Sequence record: OQ411014.1
Length of the DNA: 64,000 bases
Origin: Escherichia phage EJP2
Reading direction: 5' to 3' (one strand)
Below the pieces are notes generated by a model. It ran no database searches, was not told where the DNA came from, and was given only the letters and a program-made list of their open reading frames with translations. Positions 30,724 to 43,743 of the stretch are shown here, piece after piece; the stretch's first letter is position 1, and every line of letters begins with the position of its first letter. Made by a program: the position numbers and the translations under genes.

Positions 30724-30780
30724 ACATATACTTTGAGTGTGTTATAATACAGTCATCAAATAACAAGAAGAGAGGTTTAT

Positions 30781-31230: not shown

Positions 31231-31279
31231 TGTAGTCCCTCCTTAACTGGGGGGATTTAAACACATAAGGACAAAATAA

Positions 31280-31705
31280 ATGTTCAAATATTGTTTCCGT
31301 ACGTATGTAGTACTGTTCTTAGTACCAGCACTGTACTTGATTACTGCACAACTTAGTAAAATCTTCGAAAGTCTTAGCTTTTTGAATTTTACTGCACCAG
31401 AACAGTACAAAATTCTATTGACAATAATGTACGTTTTTTCTTTCATATTGTCAGTACTGATCATTTTCAATTCAGGATGTGACTACCGAGAGTTTCATAT
31501 TTTCAGAAACTTCAAGAACGTAACGTACTCAAAGTTCTGGAGTTATATACTCGCAGTCCCTGTTGTATTGAATTTCCATATTGAGGGCTTCTCGTTCACA
31601 ACTTTTATGCTCTTCATTGAACCAATTGCAATCTATATGTACATCCATCAACATAACCGATTCGTATTGAGTCATAATCTAGTCCACGTAGAGGAACAAC
31701 CATGA
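31280..31705 (+). CDS. multi-pass membrane protein (141 aa)
   Basis: ORF track; several hydrophobic helices. Confidence 0.5.
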   Translation: MFKYCFRTYVVLFLVPALYLITAQLSKIFESLSFLNFTAPEQYKILLTIMYVFSFILSVLIIFNSGCDYREFHIFRNFKNVTYSKFWSYILAVPVVLNFHIEGFSFTTFMLFIEPIAIYMYIHQHNRFVLSHNLVHVEEQP

Positions 31706-32199
31706 ATACGTATATCAGTGGGTTTTACAAGTACTACCTATCGTTCATAACTATATTTGCTATTCTGTTATTGAATGAAACAGAACAATTTGGATCAAAA
31801 TTCCTATCAGAAGGACTAGGAATCTTCCTTCAGGTTATCTTTGCACTGATGGCTGCTATATCAATGCCAGTACTGATCTATGGTATTCATCTTGTTGCGA
31901 GCGATGACCAGGATAGTAAGGACTCGTGTATCCGTGAGTACTGCCAAGCAGCAAAATACAGTACTATAAGTTCTATGATACCGTTTAGTCTAATTATTGT
32001 GTCCATCGCTATGTTCCAATGGAATCTGTGGTTCTTGGGTACGTTTGGATTTATTATGGGTTGTAGTATGTACGTGTATACTAAAGTACTATACAGAGGT
32101 GAGAAACTATTCACTGAAATGGAAGCCCGTAAAGGAACCAAAGCACCAGTTCAACGAGAAGAGCGAGATTATTTCGCACCAGACGATGAGTTACCTTGA
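31702..32199 (+). CDS. multi-pass membrane protein (165 aa)
   Basis: ORF track. Confidence 0.5.
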   Translation: MNTYISGFYKYYLSFITIFAILLLNETEQFGSKFLSEGLGIFLQVIFALMAAISMPVLIYGIHLVASDDQDSKDSCIREYCQAAKYSTISSMIPFSLIIVSIAMFQWNLWFLGTFGFIMGCSMYVYTKVLYRGEKLFTEMEARKGTKAPVQREERDYFAPDDELP

Positions 32200-32224
32200 C
32201 ACGTACCTGAAGAGTAGCTATAAT
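32196..32224 (+). promoter_or_regulatory. sigma70-type promoter TTGACA N17 TATAAT
   Basis: Canonical hexamers upstream of 32260 gene. Confidence 0.55.
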
Positions 32225-32259
32225 ACTTTCATTGAAGCGAAACTAACAAAGGAAACATA

Positions 32260-32514
32260 ATGGATACCGTACAGATTGAATCTTTGACTTCACTTGTTCT
32301 TGATAATGTAAAAGCTGAAGAAGAAATTTCAGTACAAATCAAAGCAGAGTATCAGTGCATTACTGAAAAGCTCCAAGATGCGAAGTACACTGTAACGAAA
32401 GAAATTGAAGAGCATTATAAGAACATTGAACGTCTGTTCCGTGTCAAGCAAGAACACATTGTTCGTCAGAATAACGCTAAGACTGCAATCAATAAACTTC
32501 TGGGAATCGCATAA
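32260..32514 (+). CDS. hypothetical protein (84 aa)
   Basis: ORF track. Confidence 0.5.
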   Translation: MDTVQIESLTSLVLDNVKAEEEISVQIKAEYQCITEKLQDAKYTVTKEIEEHYKNIERLFRVKQEHIVRQNNAKTAINKLLGIA

Positions 32515-32993
32515 TGAAAAACGTACAACAATACATTCAGAACTTCACCGCATATCCAGTATCAGTAATGTTCGGACATATCGATACACCTACTCCTAAG
32601 CAGAAGAAAGCGGAGAAACGTGTAGCAGAAATCTGTGAAGAACTGTATCGTTTTGATTGTACAGTACTATCAGATGTGCGAGCAGCATTCCGCGAGTTAG
32701 ATGTTCTTATCTCCTTGAGTGATGATAAGTTCCGCATCAAGCAAGTGCGTCTAACTCGTATGACTGGTCGTTTGGCATATTTTGTTGACAAAGCGGTTGT
32801 AATGCTCGATAATATGCACAAGAAAGACCAGCAACTTCAGCAGTACTGGCAACCGCTGTCAATGAAAGCTAAAGTACTGAAGGATGAAATCAAATCATTC
32901 CTTATCCAGTACGATACTTCAGTTGATAAGATTGTATTACTGTCTGAATTTGACAATGCATACAAAGAAGCCCAAGAGGAAGATAAGAAATGA
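32514..32993 (+). CDS. hypothetical protein (159 aa)
   Basis: ORF track. Confidence 0.55.
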   Translation: MKNVQQYIQNFTAYPVSVMFGHIDTPTPKQKKAEKRVAEICEELYRFDCTVLSDVRAAFRELDVLISLSDDKFRIKQVRLTRMTGRLAYFVDKAVVMLDNMHKKDQQLQQYWQPLSMKAKVLKDEIKSFLIQYDTSVDKIVLLSEFDNAYKEAQEEDKK

Positions 32994-33490
32994 CAACTGT
33001 TTTCGTGAGTAAAGAATTAGGAATTGCTATTACTGACTCACGAGCCACGTTTCAAGAGTCCAGGAAGTTTCTTGGGCTTTTTAACTTGACTCCATTACCA
33101 TCGTATAAAGTTGTGAATCAAAAGGCTTTGTATGTTCATGACCGTTTATTCTTAGCATGTGGAAGTGTAGATACTATTGATAAAGTATTGCAATATTTCA
33201 TCGACGGTACTAAGTTCAAGATAAACAAGAAAACTCCAAGCTGTGAGTGTCTTCTTCTTGGTAAAGAATACGGTGTACACTTGTACGTGTGGAATGGTAA
33301 GATTCATAAGAAGACTATCTTCTTGGCGTATAATTTTGTACACTTCATGGGGTCTGGTAGTTCTGCCCTACTCAGAAAGTACTACAAGACTTTAGAACGT
33401 AATACACCAGATGAAGTTATTGATATTTTCAAGACTGTACATTTGGATGATAGCTTCACTGACGATAACGTAAATTTATACAGAATCTAG
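32990..33490 (+). CDS. hypothetical protein (166 aa)
   Basis: ORF track. Confidence 0.55.
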   Translation: MTTVFVSKELGIAITDSRATFQESRKFLGLFNLTPLPSYKVVNQKALYVHDRLFLACGSVDTIDKVLQYFIDGTKFKINKKTPSCECLLLGKEYGVHLYVWNGKIHKKTIFLAYNFVHFMGSGSSALLRKYYKTLERNTPDEVIDIFKTVHLDDSFTDDNVNLYRI

Positions 33491-33519
33491 TTGACAGTCT
33501 AAAAGAGATATCATATAAT
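33491..33519 (+). promoter_or_regulatory. sigma70-type promoter TTGACA N17 TATAAT
   Basis: Canonical hexamers upstream of small ORF and sigma gene. Confidence 0.55.
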
Positions 33520-33549
33520 CATTGCATACCACAACGAGAGAGAAACAAA

Positions 33550-33696
33550 ATGAGTACATTCATCGTAGAATATGTTCTGACTGGTCAAAGCATCTGGCAG
33601 GTACAAATGGTAAAAGCATGTAATAAAGAGCAAGCCCAGAGCACGCTCAAGAAAATGATTTCTGGTGTAGTAACCACCAAAGCATACCCAGCATAA
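33550..33696 (+). CDS. small hypothetical protein (48 aa) upstream of sigma factor
   Basis: Uninterrupted frame found by hand; followed by terminator hairpin AATCCGC-TCTGT-GCGGATT plus T-run. Confidence 0.4.
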   Translation: MSTFIVEYVLTGQSIWQVQMVKACNKEQAQSTLKKMISGVVTTKAYPA

Positions 33697-33758
33697 TTTA
33701 GAGCTATAATGAATCCGCTCTGTGCGGATTCTTTTTTTTAATATCAAAGGAGAAAGTA

Positions 33759-34751
33759 ATGACTGTAAAACAACTCAATCTAGAATCTATTCAAGACGAT
33801 ATCATGGATGAATGTTTTGTAAATGAAAACAATACGTTCGAGCGTATTAGTGAACAGTCACATGACAGTACTGAAGAAGTAGAAGAAAGTACTGATGACG
33901 TAGGTTCTTTCAAGACTTACAACACATCTAGCGTTTTACCAGAAGGTGAGACGAATGAATCTATTATTCGTTTAATCCGTGACGGTATCAATGTGAAGCG
34001 TAACATTGACCTTATCGTACGTAACAACGTAGGCTTAGTATATAGCCAAGCACGTCAGTGTACTTGTAATATCCCATTCCAAGATAAAGCACAGTACGCT
34101 TTTGAAGGTCTAATGCGTGCAATCCATCGTTATGATGTGAATCAGAATATTCTTTTCAGTACTTACGCTACTGTGTCTATTCGCCAAACACTCTATAACT
34201 TTGGTAATGATGAAGTTCGTCTAATCAGTATTCCACGTCACTTGTCAGTGGATAACATCAAGATTCAGAACTACATTGAGAAGCATCGTTCTAAGTTCGG
34301 TCGTACCCCAAGTGAAGATGAAATCAGTACTGCTACTGGCATCAAGTTATCCGCAGTGAAACGTGTAGTGCAGTACATGAACAGTAAGCCAATGAGTTTC
34401 GATACTCCAATGGGTTCTGACAGTACTGAAAACGATATGAGCTTAGTGGATGTAATCCCAGGAACTTCCAATGATTACACACTAAGTGCAGATACAGTTC
34501 AGAAAGCACCACTAGATGTAATTGCATTGGTCATGTCTGAACTACCAGAAGAAGAGCAGTTGCTGATCAATAAGATTCACGGCTTGAATGGACATGAAGA
34601 AAGTACTTTTATTGCTCTAGAGACTGCTGGATTGGTAGATGCGAAGGGTAAGAAGCTAACTAACCGTTGCACTATTCATCGTCGTTACAATGCAATACTG
34701 GATAAGATTCGTAATATTCTAAAAGCACGTGACATTTCATTCGATGACTGA
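33759..34751 (+). CDS. RNA polymerase sigma factor, sigma70 family
   Basis: Region 2 match VGLVYSQARQ..FEGLMRAIHRYD..FSTYATVSIRQT and C-terminal region-4-like helix-turn-helix; AAGGAG RBS. Confidence 0.7.
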   Translation: MTVKQLNLESIQDDIMDECFVNENNTFERISEQSHDSTEEVEESTDDVGSFKTYNTSSVLPEGETNESIIRLIRDGINVKRNIDLIVRNNVGLVYSQARQCTCNIPFQDKAQYAFEGLMRAIHRYDVNQNILFSTYATVSIRQTLYNFGNDEVRLISIPRHLSVDNIKIQNYIEKHRSKFGRTPSEDEISTATGIKLSAVKRVVQYMNSKPMSFDTPMGSDSTENDMSLVDVIPGTSNDYTLSADTVQKAPLDVIALVMSELPEEEQLLINKIHGLNGHEESTFIALETAGLVDAKGKKLTNRCTIHRRYNAILDKIRNILKARDISFDD

Positions 34752-34911
34752 TATGATTCGTTACAAGGCAAACAAAGTACAAGGAACTGCTGTTGTAGTT
34801 TTCTTGTACTGGACTGAGAATCCGGTCTATGTTCTGGCAGAGAACAGTACTGTATCGCTGTCGGAGTTCATTGATATAGCAATTGAAGAATTCAAATCAT
34901 TAGAGGAATAA
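34744..34911 (+). CDS. small hypothetical protein (start uncertain)
   Basis: ORF track 34729..34911 (GTG); internal ATG chosen; weak RBS. Confidence 0.35.
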   Translation: MTDMIRYKANKVQGTAVVVFLYWTENPVYVLAENSTVSLSEFIDIAIEEFKSLEE

Positions 34912-34915
34912 TACT

Positions 34916-35287
34916 ATGTTGCACAAAGTTGAAGGTTCAAAGCACAATTGGATTGACGAATACGATATCTATGTTGGGTATGATACTTCCCCGTGTTGTT
35001 GTGAATATGCGGATTACTTCTTGAGTTATGAGATTGAGAGGAATGGAGTACCAGACGAAGAACTAATTGATAAAAGTACTTTCAAATGGGAAGAATACGA
35101 CTTCTATCCATTCGCATCTGCACTGATCGAAAACGTCCCAGGACTTGATGAAGGTGCTATTGCGATGTTCCCAATGATCCACAAAACGACTTCCCGTATG
35201 GTGTACTTGCACTTGTTTAACGCTCACAATGGTTATTACAGCCACGGGTTCGAAAGCAATACATTCATTGGTAACGGTTCTTTATAA
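34916..35287 (+). CDS. hypothetical protein (123 aa)
   Basis: ORF track; AGAGGA RBS. Confidence 0.55.
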   Translation: MLHKVEGSKHNWIDEYDIYVGYDTSPCCCEYADYFLSYEIERNGVPDEELIDKSTFKWEEYDFYPFASALIENVPGLDEGAIAMFPMIHKTTSRMVYLHLFNAHNGYYSHGFESNTFIGNGSL

Positions 35288-35296
35288 GGAATTTTT

Positions 35297-35470
35297 GTGA
35301 AAACTAAAAACTCAAAATCTTTAGGTACATATGTGAATGGTAATCGCTATGCGAAAATCAGTACATGTATTGATTGCAGTACTGGAAATACTTTATACTA
35401 TTACTGTATTCCTGGTGAGCGGGTGTATATCAGTTCAGAAGAATTCAAGAATGAATGGGTAAAAAACTAA
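35297..35470 (+). CDS. small Cys-containing protein (57 aa, GTG start)
   Basis: Uninterrupted frame found by hand; TAAGGAA RBS. Confidence 0.35.
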   Translation: MKTKNSKSLGTYVNGNRYAKISTCIDCSTGNTLYYYCIPGERVYISSEEFKNEWVKN

Positions 35471-35476
35471 AACAAA

Positions 35477-35512
35477 ATGCTTGACTTCGGTCGAGCATTC
35501 TTTTAATATAAT
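35477..35512 (+). promoter_or_regulatory. terminator-promoter module (hairpin containing -35 TTGACT, T-run, -10)
   Basis: ATGCTTGAC-TTCG-GTCGAGCAT hairpin then TTTT then TAATAT. Confidence 0.5.
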
Positions 35513-35549
35513 TGCATCAACTACACTACTACACTTGAGGATAACAATC

Positions 35550-35990
35550 ATGGCTTGGATTCACAGCAATCATTCTGAACTGAACAATTTCGATATCTTT
35601 GCATTCGTGAACATGCAAGAGAAGATCTTCATCAAAGGACGTCTCTGCACGCTCTCTGACGGCTCACGGGCCATCTGTAACATGAACAACAAGGGTGAAG
35701 TACTGGATATCGTTGCTCTTCCTGCGTGGGCTACTGTGCAGCCTGAAGAGGCACTTATGCGTCTACTCTTTGAAGAGATTGGTAAACTTCCAGGTACTGA
35801 TGTGGAGAACAAACTCTTCAACATCAAACACTCCAAGTACAGTGCTGACCAATTATCTGGTTTAACTGATACAGTACTGAAAGAAGTTGTAAGTAATCAA
35901 TGTAACGTAATTCTTAAGTACGTTCCTGAACTGGAACTGACTGAAGAAATGCTAGTGGAATTTGACATCAACGCTAAGGGTTCTCTATGA
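35550..35990 (+). CDS. hypothetical protein (146 aa)
   Basis: ORF track 35481..35990 trimmed (track start is the TTG of the promoter -35); ATG after GAGGA RBS. Confidence 0.55.
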   Translation: MAWIHSNHSELNNFDIFAFVNMQEKIFIKGRLCTLSDGSRAICNMNNKGEVLDIVALPAWATVQPEEALMRLLFEEIGKLPGTDVENKLFNIKHSKYSADQLSGLTDTVLKEVVSNQCNVILKYVPELELTEEMLVEFDINAKGSL

Positions 35991-36349
35991 GACTAATCCT
36001 GTTACTGATTTTGTTAGTAACTGCACAGACGATACCATCTGATTCATATATCGATATAAATCCAGCACGTGAGTTCATTATTTGTACAGACAGAGTAGAC
36101 AGTACTAAAAAGATTGAAGTCCTCTTCGATTCAAGTACTCCAGAATATGTAGTGACGAACAAAGTACAGTACAAATTCATTTCTCACGAAGTTATTGGGG
36201 ATGTAGATGTACTTCAATATAAGTTCGGTTCAAAGACTATGAATTTTGAATTTATTATGCAAGGTGATAAAGTATCTTCTATTCGATTGGAAGTACTTGG
36301 TGCTATCCCTGGTATGGAATTCATGGATGGGGAGTGTAAACTGCTATGA
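35987..36349 (+). CDS. secreted protein (signal peptide)
   Basis: ORF track; N-terminus MRLILLLILLVTAQT. Confidence 0.5.
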   Translation: MRLILLLILLVTAQTIPSDSYIDINPAREFIICTDRVDSTKKIEVLFDSSTPEYVVTNKVQYKFISHEVIGDVDVLQYKFGSKTMNFEFIMQGDKVSSIRLEVLGAIPGMEFMDGECKLL

Positions 36350-36690
36350 TTTCAGTACTGAATAGTATTAGTATTGTTGTTATGATTTTAGCCTGTACCT
36401 ACGCTATCCTAGCTGGGGTGCTCATCTTCTACAAGAAGACTAAGTTCTTGGGGTGGTTACAGATAAGTAAAACTGGCTATTGTTTTGTGTACGGAATAAG
36501 TGCCTTTTGTATATACAGGGATTTATTTTTAGGAGTACTTCCTCCTGATTTCAATGGGTACAACTTTAGTGCAGTGTTCTTATTGTTTTATATTGTACTT
36601 ATTGTGCTTGGTCTTTGTATACCGTATGTACTTATAGTTGGTGTTTCAAAGGTACTTGAGTACCGTAAACGTATTCCTGATGAGGATTGA
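36346..36690 (+). CDS. multi-pass membrane protein (114 aa)
   Basis: ORF track. Confidence 0.5.
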   Translation: MISVLNSISIVVMILACTYAILAGVLIFYKKTKFLGWLQISKTGYCFVYGISAFCIYRDLFLGVLPPDFNGYNFSAVFLLFYIVLIVLGLCIPYVLIVGVSKVLEYRKRIPDED

Positions 36691-36693
36691 TAA

Positions 36694-37023
36694 ATGAAGA
36701 TGGAAGACTTAGTAGAACTATTACAGCCGTACGCTACAGTACTATTTTTGATTGCTTCAATGTATACTGTTGTAACTCTAGTACTTGGATTCTTCAAGTA
36801 TCGAACACTAGCTAAACGCTTAGACGAGAACTTATGGCTCTCTGTTCCTAGTATCTTTAGTGTAGCTATTAGTATTGCAAACTATTTTATTGAAGATCGT
36901 ATGTTCGCTGCTATTATGTTATTATTTGTTTTGGTTGGGGTAACATTTGTAGGTACTATCTATGCAATGTGTAAAGGATTTGTGTACGTTCGTTCCAAGA
37001 TACCAGATCCAGAACAAGAATAA
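36694..37023 (+). CDS. multi-pass membrane protein (109 aa)
   Basis: ORF track; ends KIPDPEQE like previous gene (RIPDED). Confidence 0.5.
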   Translation: MKMEDLVELLQPYATVLFLIASMYTVVTLVLGFFKYRTLAKRLDENLWLSVPSIFSVAISIANYFIEDRMFAAIMLLFVLVGVTFVGTIYAMCKGFVYVRSKIPDPEQE

Positions 37024-37029
37024 TTCTAA

Positions 37030-37058
37030 TTAATGCTCACTTCGGTGAGCATTTTTTT
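37030..37058 (+). terminator. rho-independent terminator
   Basis: GCTCAC-TTCG-GTGAGC hairpin followed by TTTTTTTT. Confidence 0.6.
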
Positions 37059-37074
37059 TATTTTGTGATATAAT
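37045..37074 (+). promoter_or_regulatory. extended -10 promoter (GTGAGC N~16 TGTGATATAAT)
   Basis: Fifth copy of the TGTGATATAAT block; drives a ~580 nt ORF-free region. Confidence 0.45.
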
Positions 37075-37654
37075 TAAGCTATAATCTCGATTAACCATTA
37101 TGGTATAAAGAAACCTAATCCACTCGAAAATGTAGAGGGTAGATGAGTTGAGTAATCGCAACGAAGTGCAAATGAAACCCGTTAGGTGAAGGCATAGTTA
37201 GTACCTCCCACGGCGACGCGGCACTATAAATGAGCATGGTAAGATGATATTGCTCACTCGATAGACGTATAGGATGAACACCTACCAAATATCTAAGGGA
37301 GTTCATCAAAAAGGCTGGCTATAGATCCGTCCAGAATTTGATGAACACAGTACTGAATTGACTGTATAGTTCAGTACTGAAGTGTAGTAAGACTACGACC
37401 GTTGCAGAACAGAGATAGGGAGAAACAGGGCAACCCGCTTCCGTATCGTAAGATAATTCTCTATACAGTACTCCGATGCTATCAGCGTCAGATTGTCGTC
37501 CCTCCCTTGTGGGGGGATGAAATTTCCTCAACAAATCTCGTCAGGATTGATTCAGTACTATTGATATTAAATGAATATTCAGTTATGATACGAAGTATCT
37601 AACGAATACCAGACTTCTCATAAGAGAAGGATGTGATGACCCAAAGGAGATATA
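37075..37654 (+). ncRNA. putative structured non-coding RNA region (identity unknown)
   Basis: No + strand ORF of 60 aa or more across ~580 nt downstream of a promoter; multiple strong inverted repeats. Confidence 0.3.
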
Positions 37655-37903
37655 ATGAAGATTTTCAAATTTATTGCTGCTTCAGTACTAGCACTTTCCC
37701 TAAGTGCGTGTGATCGCGTAACAGAAGAACGTTCGCATGAGTTCGCACTTCCTTCTGAGTTAGTTCAAGCAGGATGTAAGATTTATCGTATGCGAGCTGA
37801 AAGTGGTGTAACTCTATATGCTTTGTATTGTCCTAATTCCACAACCACAACAAGCTACACCAGTGGTAAACAAACTCATCATGTCACTACGTACAGTAAC
37901 TAA
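37655..37903 (+). CDS. lipoprotein (82 aa)
   Basis: ORF track; AAGGAG RBS; signal MKIFKFIAASVLALSLSAC with lipobox LSAC. Confidence 0.55.
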   Translation: MKIFKFIAASVLALSLSACDRVTEERSHEFALPSELVQAGCKIYRMRAESGVTLYALYCPNSTTTTSYTSGKQTHHVTTYSN

Positions 37904-37905
37904 CT

Positions 37906-38676
37906 ATGTTCAAAATATCATACTACTCACCTAAGTGTATAACTGAGCTTACACAGTCAGAGATTGATGGTATTGACTGGACTGAAATAGATCCACCAAC
38001 AATGGATTCTATCCCAGAGGATTATCTACATCACGTCAAGAATCTTCCGATTCTCTTTGAAAAGAGAACACCTGGTACGGTCAGTGATGCGTGTCTTCGT
38101 AAGTTACTTCTCAAAAGCATGAAAGGACGTAGTACGTACTATCGTGATAGTATTTGTGAAAGTCTCTGTGACTGGGCTGGGCCAGAATTTAGTGCTAGAA
38201 ATGTGACAATGTTTGCACGTTTCATGCGAACTGGACCAATGTGGAGAACTAAACTCTACCTTATGAAACATAACATCATTAGCCTAAATGTTTACAGAAG
38301 TACCAAATCATTGAGTTCTGCAAACATGGAAGAAGTGCTGAGTTCTGTACATGTCCCAGTGCAGGAAAAGTTTGAGTACTTACTGCATTCGAATTACATT
38401 TTCGACAAGTACAATATCATTGACGAATCGTGCTTATTCGTTCATAATAAGTATCTCATAGATTTGGGCCTACCACCAATAGTGGTTAACCCTAACTCCA
38501 TGAACGAATATGAAGTACAAGAATGGAGTAATCTCGGATGTCTACAATGGGATGTTCTCCTTGATGCGTACCTTCGTGGAGAAATCGCTCCAGAATATCT
38601 GTATGACATTCATATGATGTTCTTTGATGAAAATAGCATGAAAGATAGAACCTTCTATTTTCGTGATAATGAATAG
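37906..38676 (+). CDS. hypothetical protein (256 aa)
   Basis: ORF track. Confidence 0.6.
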   Translation: MFKISYYSPKCITELTQSEIDGIDWTEIDPPTMDSIPEDYLHHVKNLPILFEKRTPGTVSDACLRKLLLKSMKGRSTYYRDSICESLCDWAGPEFSARNVTMFARFMRTGPMWRTKLYLMKHNIISLNVYRSTKSLSSANMEEVLSSVHVPVQEKFEYLLHSNYIFDKYNIIDESCLFVHNKYLIDLGLPPIVVNPNSMNEYEVQEWSNLGCLQWDVLLDAYLRGEIAPEYLYDIHMMFFDENSMKDRTFYFRDNE

Positions 38677-38682
38677 AATAAT

Positions 38683-38712
38683 ACAGTACAGAAACTTTTC
38701 TGTACTTTTTAA
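38683..38712 (+). terminator. rho-independent terminator
   Basis: CAGTACAGAAA/TTTCTGTACT hairpin followed by TTTTT. Confidence 0.55.
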
Positions 38713-38713
38713 G

Positions 38714-38740
38714 AAAAAAGAGTTGACACAGATTTCAGTA
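38714..38740 (+). promoter_or_regulatory. sigma70-type promoter TTGACA N15 TATAAT with TCAGTACTGA in spacer
   Basis: Spacer and -10 identical to promoter at 18701. Confidence 0.5.
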
Positions 38741-38801
38741 CTGATATAATTACTACATCAAGAACGAACTAACTAAAACACTCAAACATAGGATTAAAAA
38801 T

Positions 38802-38960
38802 ATGCCATATCTTCTGATTATTATCATTTCTTTCGGTGCAGGTATCTACAGTGGTAAAGTGATGTTTGAAAAAGAAATCACTGCTGGTGCTTGTTTGGAC
38901 AACAGTACTAAGTCCATCGGAGAGAAGTATGATGATATTATGAAAATCATCAAAGAATAA
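38802..38960 (+). CDS. small membrane protein (52 aa)
   Basis: Uninterrupted frame found by hand; AGGA RBS; preferred over antisense track ORF 38769..38975. Confidence 0.4.
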   Translation: MPYLLIIIISFGAGIYSGKVMFEKEITAGACLDNSTKSIGEKYDDIMKIIKE

Positions 38961-38987
38961 TTCTACACTATACAAAAGGAAACAACT

Positions 38988-39311
38988 ATGAAAGCTCTAC
39001 GTAACATTATCGCTTATGCAGTAATCTCTATGGGTATGACCTTTGCAGCACATGCAAACAGTTCTATCCTATGTGAATCGGAAAATGGCAAACAGCACGT
39101 TATGAAACATAACAGTACTGTTATGACTGTTCACGGTGAAAACTTCAACTTTGAACAAACTGGCACTCTCAAGAGCGGTGCGGATGTATTTGTTTACTGG
39201 AACCAAGAGCGTACTAAACTATTGGCGGTAACTTCTGCTGATAAGCAAACTATTGTTTATCAAATCATGGATAAGCGTCAACGTGTACTTGACATGGGTA
39301 CTTGTAACTAA
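38988..39311 (+). CDS. secreted protein (signal peptide)
   Basis: ORF track; AAGGAA RBS; N-terminus ends AAHA. Confidence 0.55.
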   Translation: MKALRNIIAYAVISMGMTFAAHANSSILCESENGKQHVMKHNSTVMTVHGENFNFEQTGTLKSGADVFVYWNQERTKLLAVTSADKQTIVYQIMDKRQRVLDMGTCN

Positions 39312-39371
39312 TATACTTTATGGGTGCATTAATATTGATGCACCTAAAACAACTAGCTCTGGAGTTTAGAT

Positions 39372-39677
39372 ATGATTGGTGTAAATTGGAATATCATTGT
39401 ATTATGTGTACCGTTGTTATTCATGACTATTGCAATGCTTGTCCGAATGTGGAAGCCCAGCATCACTGAAAAGGATATCGGATTCAATCCGCTGATTCAG
39501 CTACTCGACAATGTTTTATGTATGTGGGTAGTACTGGCATTCGTTTGGCTCTATGTATTCAATGAAGATTATCTAAACGCCAGAGCAGCACTGTATTCAA
39601 TGATTGCACTTGGGTGGTTGTGGTTGACGTGCTTCACTATTCAAACTACAGTAAAGTTCTTTCAAAATAAGGGTTGA
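39372..39677 (+). CDS. membrane protein (101 aa)
   Basis: ORF track. Confidence 0.5.
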   Translation: MIGVNWNIIVLCVPLLFMTIAMLVRMWKPSITEKDIGFNPLIQLLDNVLCMWVVLAFVWLYVFNEDYLNARAALYSMIALGWLWLTCFTIQTTVKFFQNKG

Positions 39678-39700
39678 CTTCGGTCAACCTTTTTTGAGCC
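39671..39700 (+). terminator. rho-independent terminator (hairpin-with-TTGACT family)
   Basis: GGTTGAC-TTCG-GTCAACC then TTTTTT. Confidence 0.55.
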
Positions 39701-39742
39701 TAATTTTGGGAACTTGATCTAGATCAATGTACAGGAGTAGTA

Positions 39743-40069
39743 ATGAAAAAGATATTTTTCAGCACTTTAGTAGTACTGAGTTTGTTGTCTTTCAATGTTA
39801 GTGCTTTAGAGTGCATAGATGATGCCGATAATCATTACATCATTGAGCCAGGAGAAGAAGATTCAGTACTGATCAATAACACAGAGTTTTATAAACTCAA
39901 TACGGAGGAATTCAAAGATACAGAGACAACCATTCATGATACTTGGTTACAGGATGAATCTGGAACCATTGCATTACTATCAGTAATAACAACAAAGAAA
40001 TCAAAAGAAGTTCAAACTAAACTGCACTTCGTCCAGGGAGATGAAATGTATAAGGGGATTTGTAAGTGA
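39743..40069 (+). CDS. secreted protein (signal peptide)
   Basis: ORF track; AGGAG RBS; N-terminus MKKIFFSTLVVLSLLSFNVSA. Confidence 0.55.
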   Translation: MKKIFFSTLVVLSLLSFNVSALECIDDADNHYIIEPGEEDSVLINNTEFYKLNTEEFKDTETTIHDTWLQDESGTIALLSVITTKKSKEVQTKLHFVQGDEMYKGICK

Positions 40070-40371
40070 ATACAACACGCGTCATAAACTATGTCATGGC
40101 AGACATGAAACAAGCGTACGAAGATGCATACGTACGTTACTTAGGGAAAGAGGAAGTTATTGCGACGCGAGTATACCTTGCATATGAGATGAGTTGTTCT
40201 ACACACCCTTCACTGAATAGCAAAGAAAACGCTAAGTTATTTCGTAAAGTAATTATTGACCACTACCGTAAAAACGGGTATCATATCCCTAGTGTTATGA
40301 AACTCTTCATGAATGTGATTCCTTCTAAGTATTCAGTTCATGGGGACTACGAGCCATTAACCTTAGAGTGA
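40066..40371 (+). CDS. hypothetical protein (101 aa)
   Basis: ORF track. Confidence 0.5.
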   Translation: MNTTRVINYVMADMKQAYEDAYVRYLGKEEVIATRVYLAYEMSCSTHPSLNSKENAKLFRKVIIDHYRKNGYHIPSVMKLFMNVIPSKYSVHGDYEPLTLE

Positions 40372-40377
40372 TAAACC

Positions 40378-40710
40378 ATGCAACTAAGAGAAGTACCATT
40401 AGTCCTGCCAGTACTGGCAAATTGTGTAGTACTGTTGATATTTGTATACGCATTCTTTGAATGTTTGTGTCACTTATATGTAACAGGAAGATACAGAAAC
40501 AAGTTCTTTGAGTACTCAAGAGTAGACGTAATTGCTTCAACATATTGTACGTTACTGTCGAGTACTTTGGTATGTGCTTTCTGTGTTTATATATTACCGG
40601 ACACATATTTCGCATTGACTATGTGGGCTATGATATCTAATGGTGCTGCTTTGATGTACCTGATATACATCGTGGACTACTGGAATCTAAAAAGAACTAA
40701 ACGTATATGA
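40378..40710 (+). CDS. membrane protein (110 aa)
   Basis: ORF track. Confidence 0.5.
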   Translation: MQLREVPLVLPVLANCVVLLIFVYAFFECLCHLYVTGRYRNKFFEYSRVDVIASTYCTLLSSTLVCAFCVYILPDTYFALTMWAMISNGAALMYLIYIVDYWNLKRTKRI

Positions 40711-40832
40711 TTTTATTCTTTATTTTATGTAGTACTGTAGTGTATACTCTCTTCGCTCCAAAGAAATCTACTATACAGATCTTGAGCGAAGAGATTAATA
40801 AATCCAAATCTAAATCCAATAAGGAGAAGTAA

Positions 40833-41084
40833 ATGTCACTACTTGCTTTTGTAGTACAAATGCTCATTGCAGTTTTAGTCGTACTTCCAGTACTGATCGC
40901 GTTATTCCGTGCTAAACAGGGTGTGTTCTTCGCAACAATGGGCTTGACATTTGTTATCCCAGTTGGACACCAAATCATCTTTGGTTCTTACGCAAACATG
41001 AGCAATACTGTACTAATTGTATATGGTGTATGTTATGTTACAGCACTAGCCCTCGCAATCTTCACTGAAGCAGATAAAGGATAA
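40833..41084 (+). CDS. membrane protein (83 aa)
   Basis: ORF track; AAGGAG RBS. Confidence 0.5.
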   Translation: MSLLAFVVQMLIAVLVVLPVLIALFRAKQGVFFATMGLTFVIPVGHQIIFGSYANMSNTVLIVYGVCYVTALALAIFTEADKG

Positions 41085-41088
41085 GAAC

Positions 41089-41592
41089 ATGCAACTAGAA
41101 AATTGGTTAGGATGGACTATCGTAGTAATATGTGTAGTACTGATGTATGCCCCACTAGTGCTGGTATTCGTCAAAACTAAAACAATCTCAATGCTGCTTC
41201 TGTCAATGGCAATCATTGCTGGTGCAGTAGGTGCACTCTTCGGTCAAGCATCTCCTAAAATCAGTGCAGTATTGATGGTAATGATTTGGGTAGTGATGTT
41301 GTTCGTTTCTCTCAAACTCATTTGGGCTGAGAAGGCTCCAATGTTTGAAGCTGATGAAAAGGGTAAGCGATGGTTCCTGTACTGCTTGAGTCATGATTTA
41401 CGTGTACGCATTACTGACGGAAAGATTGAGTACTATCTAGGTGAAGTAGTAACGCTTGACGAAATTCTAAAAGTGTATAAACTATCAGAACAGAATCATA
41501 ATGCATTACTTGACCAGATTGAAGCTGAAGAGTTCGCAGAACATCGTGAACAAATCAAGAAGGACTTAGCTGATTTGCGTTGTGCAAACTAA
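41089..41592 (+). CDS. membrane-anchored protein (167 aa)
   Basis: ORF track; terminator GGGAACC/GGTTCCC follows. Confidence 0.55.
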   Translation: MQLENWLGWTIVVICVVLMYAPLVLVFVKTKTISMLLLSMAIIAGAVGALFGQASPKISAVLMVMIWVVMLFVSLKLIWAEKAPMFEADEKGKRWFLYCLSHDLRVRITDGKIEYYLGEVVTLDEILKVYKLSEQNHNALLDQIEAEEFAEHREQIKKDLADLRCAN

Positions 41593-41646
41593 ACACTAGG
41601 GAACCGATGGGTTCCCTTTATTAATCCAACACACATAGAGAACAAA

Positions 41647-41946
41647 ATGAATTACATCTTATCTGTCATCTTCTTCAGTACTCTAATTGCGTATTCAGTC
41701 AATTCTTATAAAGAGAACATTGCACCAGATATGTATGAGTGTACAATAAATGTACAGTACGATACAGTACTGAAGACTAAGAAAGATACGTTCACATCCA
41801 CACGTCTGAACGAGATTGTAGACCACGGTGGTGCAATGCTGGGTGTTCATGTAGAAGATATGAAAGAAGATTCAGATTCATATAAAGGTGTAGTACTGAA
41901 ATATGAAGACGTAGTTGGTGGTAGTGTAGTGTGTAACAGAATATAA
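41647..41946 (+). CDS. hypothetical protein with N-terminal hydrophobic segment (99 aa)
   Basis: ORF track. Confidence 0.5.
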   Translation: MNYILSVIFFSTLIAYSVNSYKENIAPDMYECTINVQYDTVLKTKKDTFTSTRLNEIVDHGGAMLGVHVEDMKEDSDSYKGVVLKYEDVVGGSVVCNRI

Positions 41947-41961
41947 AAAGAGGTACGAGTG

Positions 41962-42135
41962 ATGAAAAAATGTACACTTTATGTATTGGCTTTTAGTATC
42001 TTTGCTGTACTGACATATTTTTCATTTTCTATCAAAGAAAGTTCTTCCCTTTGGGTATTCGTTGTGTTAGAATTCTTTTCGTTGGCAGTGACAATGTTGT
42101 TCATCGAACTATATTGTCGTTACATTAAAACTTAA
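41962..42135 (+). CDS. small membrane protein (57 aa)
   Basis: Uninterrupted frame found by hand; AGAGG RBS; below ORF-track cutoff. Confidence 0.4.
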   Translation: MKKCTLYVLAFSIFAVLTYFSFSIKESSSLWVFVVLEFFSLAVTMLFIELYCRYIKT

Positions 42136-42149
42136 ATGAGATACTAACC

Positions 42150-42785
42150 ATGACTAAACAAGATATTTTCAAAACTGTAATCAATGCTCTTCGGTCTGAA
42201 GAAGTTCGTTGTATGATGGAATACAACATCAATAAAGCCACTGACGCTATCGTTCCTGTTATTGAAGCTGCTGGCCTGGTGTTCGTTGGTATTGGTATGT
42301 ATTCTGTCGTTGTGGAGCATCCTAAGTACCCTGGACGTGTGTTTAAGGTTAGTACTTCACGTTGGGATGGTTTCCGTGAGTACGCTAAGTACTGCAAAGA
42401 TAACAGCAACAAACCATTTGTACCTGCTATCTATAGTGCTGAAGTTAAAGGTAACTTCGCATGGTATGAGATGGACAAATACTTCTCAATCATGAAGGCT
42501 GATGAATCTGATTTCGTAAGCAACAAAGCAGATGAAATGTATTCCTTTGCTAATGCTGGTCAGTACGGTTCATCTCTTCGTGAAGAGATGGATGTACAAC
42601 AGGATCGTATGGATATCTACAACTTCGCTAAGGAGTTAGAAAGTGCATACGGTTCGCGTTTCACGCTGGACATTCACACTGGCAATATCATGATGGATGT
42701 ATTCGGTAACTTCTTTATCACTGACCCACTTGCTGGTGATTTACGCCGCGAGATTCCAGTACTGGAAGAAGATCCAGTATTCTAA
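42150..42785 (+). CDS. protein kinase-like fold protein (211 aa)
   Basis: ORF track; glycine-rich GIGMYSVV, lysine in VFKV, catalytic-loop-like DIHTGNIMMD, DFG-like ITDP. Confidence 0.5.
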   Translation: MTKQDIFKTVINALRSEEVRCMMEYNINKATDAIVPVIEAAGLVFVGIGMYSVVVEHPKYPGRVFKVSTSRWDGFREYAKYCKDNSNKPFVPAIYSAEVKGNFAWYEMDKYFSIMKADESDFVSNKADEMYSFANAGQYGSSLREEMDVQQDRMDIYNFAKELESAYGSRFTLDIHTGNIMMDVFGNFFITDPLAGDLRREIPVLEEDPVF

Positions 42786-42794
42786 GGAGATATA

Positions 42795-43088
42795 ATGAAA
42801 GGTGCATTATTAGTAATTTTTGGAATGATTTTGATTTATTTTAGTGTTGACAAGTACACACAAAAGTCTGTACAATCAGTACCAGAAGCCCAAGAGACTT
42901 CACCAGTTCAGGAGCCACCAGCACCGGAACCTAAGTCCCAAGAGCAAGTACAAAACGAATACTACGCACATCACGTGTATCGTTTTAAAGATGACAAGTA
43001 CAAAGTTATTTGCTGGCGTATCATGAATATGAACCATGCAGGTTTATCTTGTCTCCCTGAACATTTGGTAAACGAAAGGACCGAATAA
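42795..43088 (+). CDS. membrane-anchored Pro/Gln-rich protein (97 aa)
   Basis: ORF track; AAGGAG RBS. Confidence 0.5.
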   Translation: MKGALLVIFGMILIYFSVDKYTQKSVQSVPEAQETSPVQEPPAPEPKSQEQVQNEYYAHHVYRFKDDKYKVICWRIMNMNHAGLSCLPEHLVNERTE

Positions 43089-43420
43089 TGAATATCATTT
43101 ATCCTAACACAAGCACCAATTTTGATGACGTTGTAAGTGTTCTGAACAATAACAGTACTGTAACAATTCAGTTTCAGTTATCACCAAGTACTGGTCTTCT
43201 TGTGAAGAAAGAAGTATCCAAATACGTTGGCTATGAAAACCAAACTGTAATTGAAGTTTCGTTCTATGAAGATGATGCATCTGTGTTCGGTCGCATGTCA
43301 TCTGGTACTGAAATTCATGCAGCAGATGAAGCACTATTAGTAGTGCGTGCACTAAAGGAACGCTTGGCTTCAACGTCACCAAGCGATGTCAGTTCTATCT
43401 CTCTAGCTCGCGTGTGGTAA
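43088..43420 (+). CDS. hypothetical protein (110 aa)
   Basis: ORF track. Confidence 0.5.
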   Translation: MNIIYPNTSTNFDDVVSVLNNNSTVTIQFQLSPSTGLLVKKEVSKYVGYENQTVIEVSFYEDDASVFGRMSSGTEIHAADEALLVVRALKERLASTSPSDVSSISLARVW

Positions 43421-43425
43421 ACGAA

Positions 43426-43728
43426 ATGAAACAGGTTATTATTGCAACGTTTGTATTTTTACTATTCACTCCAGTAACTTATGCTGGTATCAATCTGGAT
43501 TGTGTACTCACTAATTCATCTGGTGCAAAGATGCAGATCAATACCAGACAGACCTTTGGTGAATCTTATATTGAGTCAGATGCTTATATCAACTTCAAAG
43601 CAGTGGACTTTGTTGAAGGCTCGTTCATCAACTCCAACATGGTACTGGATAAGATTACTCTCAAGGGAGTGTTCAGTACTCAAAAGGATAACGGTAAAAC
43701 CCATCACGCAATGGTAGATTGTAACTAA
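43426..43728 (+). CDS. secreted protein (signal peptide)
   Basis: ORF track 43414..43728 (GTG) trimmed to ATG; N-terminus MKQVIIATFVFLLFTPVTYAG. Confidence 0.5.
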   Translation: MKQVIIATFVFLLFTPVTYAGINLDCVLTNSSGAKMQINTRQTFGESYIESDAYINFKAVDFVEGSFINSNMVLDKITLKGVFSTQKDNGKTHHAMVDCN

Positions 43729-43743
43729 GAGGAAAGCTAAGTT

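What the first reader, a model, noticed from the sequence alone, without database searches (positions are those of the whole stretch)
37075..37654. Largest ORF-free region (~580 nt), promoter-driven and rich in nested inverted repeats
Downstream of a strong terminator and an extended -10 promoter there is no + strand ORF of 60 aa or more. There are several long hairpins, including a 10-bp stem enclosing a second hairpin (~37300-37350), CAGTACTGAA...TTCAGTACTG (~37325-37365) and CCCTCCC...GGGGGG (~37500-37520). I could not recognise group I intron, tmRNA or RNase P signatures by eye.
Basis: seen in the sequence. Interest (0 to 1): 0.5.

Follow-up and report, generated by a model that had tools for sequence, protein, structure and literature searches.

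The report
New large structured jumbo-phage RNA gene
The ORF-free stretch is a gene for a roughly 465-nucleotide, intricately folded non-coding RNA from an unannotated family that has 4-5 diverged copies in every Rak2/121Q-like jumbo phage and also occurs in small bacterial genomic islands; its function is unknown, and new RNAs of this size and complexity are rare.

Summary
Window 37081-37546 (+) lies behind a terminator and an extended -10 promoter and is not coding. It is one member of a conserved RNA family.

- **Distribution:** homologues occur in 71 Rak2/121Q-like jumbo phage records, usually 4-5 diverged paralogues per genome. They also occur in about 75 metagenome loci and in small integrase-bearing islands of Enterobacterales chromosomes.
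- **Conservation:** it is the only part of a 15-kb stretch still 87% identical to the nearest phage.
- **Structure:** on 54 copies, 87.9% of cells pair against 70.2% in shuffles, and 71 of 99 pairs change on both sides. A 7-bp pseudoknot pairs in 99.7% of cells. The 133-position core pairs in 96.1%.
- **Strand:** G·U (338) far exceeds A·C (77), which fixes the + strand.
- **Known families:** no Rfam 15 model, tRNA/tmRNA finder, PGAP annotation or paper identifies it.
- **Stand-alone gene:** copies flanked by convergent genes show it is not a leader.

My best reading is a trans-acting, ribozyme-sized "ornate" RNA of unknown biochemistry. An RNA-primed replication origin exploited by satellite-like islands is the main rival. 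I rate it highly interesting and probably a new RNA class.

The parts
37032..37061 (+). Intrinsic terminator of the upstream gene (ORF 36694-37023): stem AATGCTCAC/GTGAGCATT followed by a T run.
37045..37074 (+). Promoter: a degenerate -35-like box GTGAGCA (37045-51), a 12-nt spacer, and the extended -10 TGTGATATAAT (37064-74). It is the window's version of the family-wide motif T(G/A)(G/A)(G/A)AC(A/G)-N11-13-TGnTATAAT. The start site is inferred near 37081.
   Evidence: One search aligns the promoters of 46 copies. (PMC5259590) describes the same 'divergent RpoD-like' promoter class, with a TGAAACG -35, in phages CBB and GAP32.
37081..37546 (+). Body of the structured RNA, i.e. the region homologous to the family. 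The 3' end is not marked by a terminator in this copy.
   Evidence: nhmmer with the family profile matches 37098-37545 at E 3.6e-112. blastn matches 37113-37660 to 121Q and 37114-37551 to Hallingskeid.
37088..37158 (+). 5' domain. H1 (37088-93/37153-58) encloses a variable hairpin and H3 (37115-25/37135-42), which has the conserved loop GAAAAUGUA. The invariant AUGAG follows.
   Evidence: H1 has 6 of 6 pairs changed on both sides. H3 has 7 of 8 and is 94% paired.
37165..37225 (+). Junction domain: H4 AGUGC/GCACU (37165-69/37221-25), H5 CCGU/ACGG (37179-82/37210-13), near-invariant joining strands AAAUGAAA and CAAUGCG, and a variable distal hairpin (37185-37208).
   Evidence: H4 is 99.3% paired with 3 pairs changed on both sides. 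H5 is 98.1% paired.
37231..37301 (+). H7 (37231-36/37251-56), the conserved strand CUCGAUAGACNUAU, H8 (37270-73/37281-84) and the invariant UAAGGGAG (37294-37301).
   Evidence: H7 has 6 of 6 pairs changed on both sides. One search lists the invariant columns.
37301..37346 (+). H9, a 10-bp stem (37301-10/37337-46). It carries a peripheral module: stem 37315-18/37331-34 with the conserved loop CUAUAGAUCCGU. In other paralogues the same module sits on the tip of H14, or occurs at both sites.
   Evidence: the outer 5 pairs covary. The module swap is visible in A2 columns 383-400 against 545-570.
37348..37379 (+). H10, a 10-bp hairpin whose 12-nt loop UUGACUGUAUAG supplies the 5' strand of the pseudoknot (37361-67).
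   Evidence: 10 of 10 pairs changed on both sides.
37463..37469 (+). 3' strand of pseudoknot PK1 (AUACAGU), pairing with 37361-67.
   Evidence: 99.7% of cells paired and 7 of 7 pairs changed on both sides; 99.2%.
37383..37462 (+). Core of the 3' domain: H11 (37383-87/37393-97); invariant GACCGUUG (37397-404); H12 (37411-15/37458-62); H13 GGGAG/CUUCC (37418-22/37438-42) enclosing the invariant GAAACAGGGCAACCCGC (37422-38); and H14 (37444-47/37452-55), capped by the GNRA tetraloop GUAA.
   Evidence: CM R1 scores 130.9 bits (E 1e-28) at 37345-37473.
37475..37489 (+). H15 hairpin GAUGC-UAUCA-GCGUC. Most paralogues have GACGA-CUAUCA-UCGUC.
   Evidence: Seen in the sequences. The column-wise count failed (33.7% paired) because the 5' strand is shifted by one column in the alignment.
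37496..37545 (+). H16, a C-run/G6 hairpin (37499-505/37511-17, extendable to 37496/37520), followed by the conserved single-stranded tail CCUCAACAAAUCUCGUCAG (37526-44).
   Evidence: H16 varies only by C<->U opposite G (for example UG 28 and CG 25). That keeps G·U pairs on the + strand only. Tail conservation is shown.
37561..37654 (+). Poorly conserved spacer containing a sigma-70-like promoter (TTGATA-17-TATGAT) and the ribosome-binding site of the next gene (ORF 37655-37903). It is probably not part of the RNA family core.
   Evidence: Similarity to Hallingskeid ends at 37551.

Best explanation
Window ~37081-37546 (+) is a stand-alone gene for a large (about 465 nt), highly structured non-coding RNA. 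It belongs to a previously unannotated family. Host RNA polymerase reads it from a phage-specific promoter class (a TGAAACG-like box plus an extended -10).

**Fold.** The RNA has a 5' domain (H1-H8) and a more widely conserved 3' domain (H9-H16). The 3' domain is locked by a 7-bp pseudoknot between the H10 loop and the strand after H12. Interchangeable peripheral elements decorate it: a GNRA tetraloop or an 'AUAGAUCCGUC' hairpin module. Invariant joining strands such as UAAGGGAG, GACCGUUG and GAAACAGGGCAACCCGC remain exposed.

**Shown.**
- It is a conserved gene.
- The strand is +.
- The secondary structure and pseudoknot are supported.
- The family is multi-copy and dispersed.
- It is independent of neighbouring genes.

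**Inferred.** The folded RNA is the product and acts in trans, as a scaffold or RNP subunit, a self-assembling RNA or a ribozyme, during the middle phase of jumbo-phage infection. It would be comparable in kind to ROOL and GOLLD RNAs. Copies in chromosomal islands would then be versions that exploit or interfere with that phage function.
For: **Conservation**
- 71 phage records carry it, all Rak2/121Q-like, with 4-5 places per genome.
- The RNA is the only segment of 30000-45000 that matches the nearest relative by megablast, at 86.9%.
- There are 47 IMG/VR loci, falling into at least 16 sequence clusters.
- About 75 metagenome loci are confirmed by nhmmer.

**Structure**
- On A2, 87.9% of cells pair against 70.2% in shuffles. 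71 of 99 pairs change on both sides. The covariation score is 0.487 against 0.170 in shuffles (0 of 500 reach it) and 0.07-0.10 for slid partners.
- On the core alignment A3, 96.1% pair and the covariation score is 0.768 against 0.252.
- The pseudoknot pairs in 99.7% of cells.
- RNAalifold recovers the same helices independently.

**Strand**
- G·U 338 against A·C 77.
- H16 varies only by C<->U opposite G.
- The conserved promoter lies upstream in all copies.

**Stand-alone gene**
- The 121Q copy at 326.6 kb and the Munch copy lie between or against opposite-strand genes. They have their own promoter and intrinsic terminator.
- Bacterial copies converge on a cI-like gene.

**Tertiary-fold signatures**
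- The GNRA loop on H14 is replaced in other paralogues by a conserved module that otherwise sits on H9.

**Composition**
- GC is 43% against about 36% in the flanks.
Against: - No transcript data exist for any member.
- This copy has no terminator, so its 3' end is undefined, and it may be cut from a longer transcript.
- In about half of the paralogues an intrinsic terminator sits between H15 and H16. Yet H16 and the tail stay conserved at RNA level, which a simple 'promoter-RNA-terminator' picture does not explain.
- No protein partner or target was found.
- Several features would equally suit a cis-acting DNA/RNA element such as an origin: the dispersed, co-oriented copies (121Q: 90, 193, 247 and 327 kb, all +), a middle-type promoter, a G6 tract, and presence in islands that lack replication genes.
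Confidence: 0.6

Rival explanations
1. RNA-primed replication origin. The transcript would be a pre-primer, functionally like ColE1 RNA II or the R-loop origins ori(uvsY) and ori(34) of T4. Its folded body would position the G6/C-run element and tail to form a persistent RNA-DNA hybrid that primes leading-strand synthesis. Several origins per jumbo genome would fire in the middle phase. Small chromosomal islands would carry a copy so that an infecting phage replicates them (satellites).
For: - There are four dispersed, co-oriented copies in 121Q.
- The promoter belongs to the class that PMC5259590 found mostly upstream of DNA-synthesis genes in CBB. From my own knowledge, T4 R-loop origins use middle promoters.
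- A G6 tract followed by A/T-rich DNA is conserved.
- Islands hold an integrase, the RNA and a few genes, with no recognisable replication protein. One island is integrase plus two ParB/RepB-like genes plus the RNA.
- Island copies keep the phage-type promoter.
- The islands share the phage's ~10-fold AGTACT excess. The E. coli island has 21 sites in 10.6 kb, against 5 in the 30 kb of flanking DNA.
Against: - About 15 covarying helices, a pseudoknot and invariant loops across deep paralogues are far more constraint than known pre-primers need.
- Many copies have an intrinsic terminator upstream of the G-rich element.
- There is no GC-skew inflection at the locus. This is weak evidence for T4-like phages.
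- There is no match in 72,556 plasmids, so it is not a host-only ColE1-type origin.
- The H16 hairpin would compete with hybrid formation.
Confidence: 0.17
2. Cis-acting leader. The RNA would be a giant riboswitch or a put-like processive antiterminator. It would modify the transcribing polymerase, or sense a ligand, to control read-through of the terminator after H15 into the downstream operon.
For: - In the window the RNA lies directly behind a promoter and ahead of co-directional ORFs.
- About half of the paralogues have promoter - RNA - intrinsic terminator - downstream genes.
- In both subfamilies the pentamer of the H15 3' strand is repeated in the tail. This would allow alternative pairing.
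Against: - The 121Q copy at 326.6 kb, the Munch and fENko copies and the bacterial copies are followed by opposite-strand genes, so there is nothing to regulate.
- Downstream genes differ between paralogues and between genera.
- The window's downstream gene has its own promoter-like site.
Confidence: 0.08
3. A very divergent member of a known catalytic or housekeeping RNA, such as RNase P RNA, a group I or II intron, tmRNA or 6S, that the models miss.
For: - Its size and complexity match RNase P RNA or a group I intron.
- The phage carries many tRNA genes.
- By eye, ACAGGGCAACCCGCUU loosely resembles the RNase P CR-V motif. This comparison is from memory only.
Against: - No Rfam model reaches even E<=10 on the window copy, or E<=1 on 12 other copies including the divergent subfamily.
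- ARAGORN finds no tmRNA.
- The helix order does not fit the P1-P4 pseudoknot plan or a group I P3-P8 core.
- The element is intergenic, so it has no exons.
- Having 4-5 paralogues is unlike any of these RNAs.
Confidence: 0.03
4. Not an RNA gene: small unannotated proteins or a chance ORF-free spacer.
For: - Mechanical ORFs of 64-71 aa overlap the region.
- Several relatives annotate tiny hypothetical proteins there.
Against: - Those annotations lie on different strands and in different frames in different phages.
- The alignment is full of indels that are not multiples of three, and of paired compensatory changes.
- The AUG after the G run is not conserved in presence or frame.
- Nucleotide conservation exceeds that of all flanking genes.
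Confidence: 0.01

Closest known systems
ROOL and GOLLD RNAs (large 'ornate' non-coding RNAs of phages and prophages)
   Same: - It is encoded by phages and by integrated elements.
- It is several hundred nucleotides long, with many covarying helices and a pseudoknot.
- The 3' domain is more conserved and the 5' domain more variable, as described for GOLLD.
- No protein partner is known and the function is unknown (PMC12286853).
   Different: - There is no sequence or structure match to their Rfam models.
- The hosts are Enterobacterales jumbo myophages rather than Firmicutes or Actinobacteria phages.
- There are 4-5 diverged paralogues per genome.
- This copy is not next to the tRNA island; the tRNAs lie about 24 kb away.
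- Oligomer or nanocage formation is untested.
ColE1 RNA II and the T4 ori(uvsY)/ori(34) origin transcripts (RNA-primed, R-loop origins)
   Same: - A promoter-driven structured transcript of about 450-550 nt carries a G-rich element near its 3' end.
- The promoter is of a middle type.
- A T4-like genome has several copies.
- No dedicated initiator protein is needed, which would suit the gene-poor islands.
   Different: - The fold is much more strongly and deeply conserved.
- Terminators lie upstream of the G run in many copies.
- It is absent from 72,556 plasmids.
- No skew signal is present.
- Hybrid formation and RNase H processing are untested.
- The comparison rests on my own knowledge of those systems.
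phi29 pRNA
   Same: - It is a phage-encoded structured RNA that acts in trans.
- Loop-strand complementarity (PK1 here) covaries.
   Different: - pRNA is about 170 nt, single-copy and belongs to small podophages.
- There is no Rfam match.
- PK1 is most simply intramolecular.
- No link to packaging has been shown.
HK022 put RNA and riboswitch leaders
   Same: The RNA lies directly behind a promoter, and in many copies ahead of an intrinsic terminator.
   Different: - It is 6-7 times larger.
- Several members have no downstream co-directional gene.
- The family therefore cannot be a leader in general.

Membership tests
Any Rfam 15 family (including RNase P, group I/II introns, tmRNA, 6S, ROOL, GOLLD, OLE, HEARO, raiA, phage pRNA) | Scores at or above the family's gathering threshold with its covariance model. 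| tested here: not met
   At gathering thresholds the whole window yields only 6 tRNAs. At E<=10 on 36900-37800 there are only chance terminator and sRNA-like hits of 16-25 bits. Nothing relevant appears at E<=1 on 8 paralogue loci or on 4 loci of the divergent subfamily.
tmRNA / tRNA | A tRNA-like domain or cloverleaf detectable by ARAGORN. | tested here: not met
   No gene is found in 36500-38200.
Large ornate phage RNAs (ROOL/GOLLD) as a kind | Encoded in phages or prophages; more than 400 nt; many covarying helices with pseudoknots. | tested here: met
Large ornate phage RNAs (ROOL/GOLLD) as a kind | Usually adjacent to tRNA islands. | tested here: not met
   The window's tRNAs lie at 682-12769 and the RNA at 37081. 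No tRNA is annotated near the four 121Q copies.
Large ornate phage RNAs (ROOL/GOLLD) as a kind | Homo-oligomeric RNA-only assembly (nanocage). | not testable with these tools
   This needs native gels, SEC-MALS or cryo-EM. PK1 could be intra- or intermolecular.
RNA-primed origin (ColE1 RNA II / T4 R-loop origin) | The transcript forms a persistent RNA-DNA hybrid that is processed into a primer at the replication start. | not testable with these tools
   This needs DRIP, RNase H mapping or 2D gels.
RNA-primed origin (ColE1 RNA II / T4 R-loop origin) | Supports autonomous replication with host factors, and is therefore found on plasmids. | tested here: not met
   No blastn match in 72,556 plasmids with either the bacterial copy or the window copy.
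RNA-primed origin (ColE1 RNA II / T4 R-loop origin) | A compositional skew switch at the locus. | tested here: inconclusive
   Cumulative GC skew rises monotonically through 37 kb. T4-like phages often show no such signal.
Cis-acting leader (riboswitch / put-type antiterminator) | Every member lies between a promoter and a co-directional downstream gene that it controls. | tested here: not met
   The 121Q copy at 326.6 kb, the Munch and fENko copies and the bacterial copies face opposite-strand genes.
Protein-coding gene | An ORF conserved in frame and strand across homologues. | tested here: not met
   Annotated mini-ORFs differ in strand and frame. Indels are not multiples of three and changes are paired.
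Rak2-like 'divergent RpoD-like' promoter class (PMC5259590) | A TGAAACG-type box in place of TTGACA, plus a TATAAT -10. | tested here: met
   46 copies were aligned on the -10. The motif is T(G/A)(G/A)(G/A)AC(A/G)-N11-13-TGnTATAAT. The window copy has the extended -10 but only a degenerate box (GTGAGCA).

The most novel reading that the evidence does not exclude
This is a new class of ribozyme-sized RNA that Rak2-like jumbo phages need in 4-5 specialised paralogues. It could be a self-assembling RNA machine, or the RNA component of their replication origins. The small Enterobacterales islands carry a copy driven by the phage-type promoter and share the phage's AGTACT signature. They would be the first satellites or RNA-based interference elements known for jumbo phages, using this RNA as the hijacking handle.
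Probability: 0.25. Interest if true: 0.92.

Novelty: categorically new. Interest (0 to 1): 0.8.

Why it matters
Bacterial and phage RNAs of more than 400 nt with this density of conserved structure are very few: rRNA, RNase P, group I/II introns, OLE, GOLLD, ROOL, raiA and HEARO. Each has led to new biochemistry or new structural principles.

- **Tractable hosts.** This family sits in culturable coliphages (121Q, PBECO4, phAPEC6, G17) and in Salmonella, Klebsiella, Erwinia and Serratia phages. Knock-outs, RNA-seq, pull-downs and cryo-EM are immediately feasible.
- **Unprecedented gene family.** A set of 4-5 ancient paralogues per genome, each with its own pseudoknot sequence, has no precedent among large phage RNAs.
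- **Link to bacterial islands.** Homologues sit beside integrases in small chromosomal islands that share a phage-type promoter and an oligonucleotide signature. This offers a route into satellite or defence biology of jumbo phages, which is almost unexplored.
- **Annotation.** At a minimum, dozens of published genomes carry spurious 'hypothetical proteins' over these loci and lack this RNA annotation.

Tried and rejected
- **Rfam.** I searched at gathering thresholds and at E-value thresholds on the window, 8 paralogue loci and 4 divergent loci. Nothing relevant came up.
- **ARAGORN.** It found nothing.
- **Other copies in the window.** blastn, nhmmer and the CM run with filters off all found only one.
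- **PA5oct.** I tested homology to the RNA-seq-defined ncRNAs of the distant relative PA5oct, hoping for expression evidence. ncRNA001, 002 and 003 show nothing. ncRNA004 shares several motifs by eye. Neither nhmmer nor CM R1 gives a significant hit to it (5 bits), so I make no claim.
- **Closing helix P0.** The proposed long-range helix 37161-64/37538-41 has only two invariant central pairs. 15-23 sequences are mismatched at the flanking pairs, so it is not supported.
- **All-against-all covariation scan.** I scanned for extra tertiary pairs. Lineage-correlated transitions swamped it.
- **H15.** Column-wise counting failed because of a 1-nt register shift in the alignment.
- **Short peptide after the G run.** The AUG and its frame are not conserved.
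- **GC-skew origin signal.** None was found.
- **Plasmid homologues.** None were found.
- **Shared protein partner.** The 286-aa protein conserved in 5 islands has no tblastn hit in 50,697 phage records.
- **Literature.** Searches for a prior description found none. The 10,006-motif virus catalogue PMC10690425 does not name individual motifs and could contain fragments of this RNA.
Full report
**1. What is in the window**

ORF 36694-37023 ends in a strong intrinsic terminator (37032-37053 plus a T run). An extended -10, TGTGATATAAT (37064-74), follows it. The next plausible gene starts at 37655, behind AAAGGAG.

The 10-bp stem is at 37301-10/37337-46, with a nested CTGG/CCAG hairpin. CAGTACTGAA/TTCAGTACTG is at 37348-57/37370-79, about 20 nt to the right of the stated position. 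CCCTCCC/GGGGGG is at 37499-517.

The claim of the "largest ORF-free region with no + ORF of 60 aa or more" is only approximately true. A TTG-start ORF of 66 aa lies at 37402-37602. With ATG starts only, the 631-nt gap ranks fourth on the + strand.

Folding the single sequence is unimpressive (z = -2.3). The argument must therefore rest on comparison with relatives.

**2. It is conserved, and more so than the genes around it**

The window comes from an undescribed Rak2/121Q-like jumbo phage with 36.9% GC and a tRNA cluster at 0.7-12.8 kb.

blastn finds the region in 71 phage records, all jumbo myophages of this clade. These include the genera Asteriusvirus, Eneladusvirus, Mimasvirus and Alcyoneusvirus, and also Munch, 7t3 and Hallingskeid. 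Identity is 67-86%. In most records the region is unannotated or covered by tiny "hypothetical proteins".

A megablast of window 30000-45000 matches the closest relative, Erwinia phage Hallingskeid, at only one place. That place is 37114-37551, at 86.9% identity. The flanking protein genes have diverged beyond detection.

**3. It is a multi-copy family**

A pattern built from invariant blocks (GACCGT...TAG...GAAAC.G....ACCCGC) hits 47 IMG/VR loci, with 3-5 hits per jumbo genome. The copies within one genome are only about 70% identical to each other. They fall into orthologous groups shared between genera, so they are ancient paralogues and not recent repeats.

In 121Q the four copies lie at 90.3, 192.8, 247.5 and 326.6 kb, all on the + strand. 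Their positions are syntenic across genera. One example is the copy upstream of the DNA methyltransferase in 121Q, BF and Yen9-03.

The 64-kb window holds only one copy.

The metagenome scan gave 99 loci, about 75 of which nhmmer confirms. They include a divergent "type B" subfamily on T4-like contigs. Type B keeps the 3' domain but has a different 5' half and tail.

**4. Structure**

I aligned 54 full-length copies (A2). RNAalifold and inspection give about 16 helices and a pseudoknot. On A2:

- 87.9% of cells form standard pairs, against 70.2% in column shuffles.
- 71 of 99 pairs change on both sides.
- The covariation score is 0.487, against 0.170 in shuffles (0 of 500 reach it) and 0.07-0.10 when partners are slid by 1-3 columns.

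H1, H3, H4, H7, H8, the outer part of H9, H10, H11, H12, H13 and H14 are each 87-100% paired, with multiple compensatory pair types.

The pseudoknot joins the H10 loop (37361-67) to 37463-69. It pairs in 99.7% of cells, and all 7 pairs show double changes.

The 133-position core (37345-37472) was realigned with type B sequences included. It is 96.1% paired, with a covariation score of 0.768 against 0.252. A covariance model built from it scores 130.9 bits on the window, and no other site in the window exceeds 12 bits.

Some features point to a compact tertiary fold:

- Joining strands are invariant: AUGAG, AAAUGAAA/CAAUGCG, CGAUAGAC, UAAGGGAG, GACCGUUG and GAAACAGGGCAACCCGC.
- H14 carries a GNRA tetraloop in the window copy. 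Other paralogues replace it with a conserved hairpin module (UACAAUAUAGAUCCGUC), which otherwise sits inside H9. Some copies have the module at both sites.

Not supported or not resolved:

- The proposed closing helix P0 is not supported.
- The column-wise count for H15 failed because of an alignment shift.
- The partner of the conserved 3' tail is unknown.

**5. Strand and transcription unit**

G·U outnumbers A·C by 338 to 77 in the helices. The C-run/G6 hairpin H16 varies almost only by C<->U opposite G. Both observations fit an RNA read from the + strand.

Every copy is preceded by the same promoter, T(G/A)(G/A)(G/A)AC(A/G)-N11-13-TGnTATAAT. This is the "divergent RpoD-like promoter with -35 TGAAACG" reported for CBB and GAP32, where it lies mostly upstream of DNA-synthesis genes (PMC5259590). 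The window copy has the extended -10 but only a degenerate upstream box.

About half of the paralogues carry a canonical intrinsic terminator right after H15, and the window copy does not. H16 and the tail CCUCAACAAAUCUCGUCAG remain conserved downstream of that terminator. I cannot explain this.

In both subfamilies the pentamer of the H15 3' strand is repeated in the tail: UCGUC...UCGUC in type A and CGAAG...CGAAG in type B. This hints at alternative pairing.

**6. Stand-alone gene, not a leader**

The 121Q copy at 326.6 kb lies between endonuclease VII (-) and a baseplate hub operon (-). It has its own promoter and terminator. The Munch and fENko copies face opposite-strand baseplate genes. 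Neighbouring genes differ for each paralogue.

**7. Bacterial homologues**

The same pattern finds true homologues in Enterobacterales chromosomes: Serratia fonticola (complete genome), Serratia sp., Enterobacter chinensis, Silvania, Buttiauxella and others. Three of the 11 genome hits are chance matches. Two of 5,426 complete E. coli genomes also carry one.

There the RNA sits in small integrative islands:

- In one arrangement it lies directly downstream of a large serine recombinase, facing a cI-like/cro-like switch and a conserved 286-aa protein.
- In another, the island is an integrase, two ParB/RepB-like genes and the RNA, next to a duplicated rof gene.
- In E. coli LR-29-1 it lies in a roughly 10-kb island beside ffs. 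That island has a tyrosine integrase and candidate defence genes (PDC-M45). PGAP annotates nothing over the RNA.

The island copies keep the phage-type promoter with the same spacing. The islands also share the roughly 10-fold AGTACT excess of the jumbo phages. The E. coli island has 21 sites in 10.6 kb, against 5 in the 30 kb of flanking chromosome.

The 286-aa island protein has no homologue in phages. The RNA has no homologue on plasmids.

**8. What it is not**

- No Rfam 15 family matches, at any threshold tried.
- It is not a tRNA or tmRNA.
- It is not coding. The annotated ORFs are inconsistent, indels are not multiples of three, and changes are compensatory.
- It is not a general cis-leader (section 6).
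- It is not a host-only plasmid origin.
- I found no paper describing it. A bulk catalogue of viral RNA motifs (PMC10690425) could contain pieces of it without naming them.

**9. How it most likely works**

Shown: it is a conserved, independently promoted, + strand RNA gene with a complex pseudoknotted fold, present as 4-5 ancient paralogues per genome.

Inferred: the folded RNA is the functional product and acts in trans during the middle phase of infection. It could be a scaffold or RNP subunit, a self-assembling RNA or a ribozyme. The closest kind is the ROOL/GOLLD group of phage RNAs, which are also of unknown function (PMC12286853). I give this reading 0.6.

The main rival, at about 0.17, is an RNA-II-like pre-primer or R-loop origin.

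- For it: the dispersed, co-oriented copies, the middle-type promoter, the G6 tract, and islands that have an integrase, sometimes partition-like genes, but no replication gene.
- Against it: the depth of structural constraint, the terminators upstream of the G run, and the absence of any skew signal.

Either way, the island copies suggest that this RNA is the point of contact between jumbo phages and a set of small mobile islands, which could be satellites or defence elements.

**10. Verdict**

Its function is unknown, and no expression data exist yet.

Noticed in passing
whole window (e.g. 139, 340, 1704... 37348, 37372); also L001, L005, L010, L170-L172: The palindrome AGTACT occurs 240 times in 64 kb, against 21 expected. 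CAGTACTG occurs 84 times, against 0.7 expected, and is the commonest octamer in the window. Median spacing is 629 bp, it lies inside and between ORFs, and it has no flanking consensus. The same roughly 10-fold excess appears in all Rak2-like loci fetched, but not in PA5oct or in host DNA.
   Followed up: partly
L069:15870-26505 (E. coli LR-29-1 island); L058, L062, L068: The chromosomal islands that carry the RNA homologue share the phage's AGTACT enrichment. The E. coli island has 21 sites in 10.6 kb, against 5 in the 30 kb of flanking DNA. Twelve of them lie within 1.5 kb around the RNA. A triple ATCGATCG repeat follows at L069:20985-21025.
   Followed up: partly
L173:517-1135 (Pseudomonas phage PA5oct ncRNA004, MK797984 246116-246734): This RNA-seq-defined 619-nt ncRNA of a distant relative shows motifs in the same order by eye: CUCGAAAC..UGUAGGAUG, CACGGCAU, a hairpin with loop UAUAGAUUCCGU, and a C-run/G-run hairpin followed by GGAAAUCUUCUCC. 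nhmmer and the core CM find no significant match. It may be a very remote member.
   Followed up: partly
L093, L099, L110, L142, L144, L155, L168 (metagenome contigs): A divergent 'type B' subfamily has about 45% GC and lies on T4-like contigs. It has the same 3' core and pseudoknot but a different 5' half, the tail GUCAAACCACGAAGAUG, and further conserved hairpins downstream.
   Followed up: partly
L005:1440-1462, L052 and L037 (5' of the RNA body): In several paralogue groups a terminator-like hairpin with a U run lies between the -10 and helix H1. The predicted start site falls at or inside its 5' arm. It may terminate only upstream transcription.
   Followed up: no
window 682-12769: A cluster of at least six tRNA genes, three of them long-arm types of 87 nt.
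   Followed up: no
window 38723-38750: A perfect sigma-70 consensus promoter, TTGACA-16-TATAAT with an upstream TG. It follows a - strand terminator-like hairpin at 38685-38706.
   Followed up: no
window 37655-37903: The ORF just downstream begins MKIFKFIAASVLALSLSAC, which looks like a lipoprotein signal peptide with a lipobox cysteine (read).
   Followed up: no
L002:437-1402 (121Q gp167) and L010:279-1175 (RaK2 ORF244): In 121Q and RaK2 one RNA paralogue lies immediately downstream of the phage's annotated RNA polymerase sigma factor gene.
   Followed up: no
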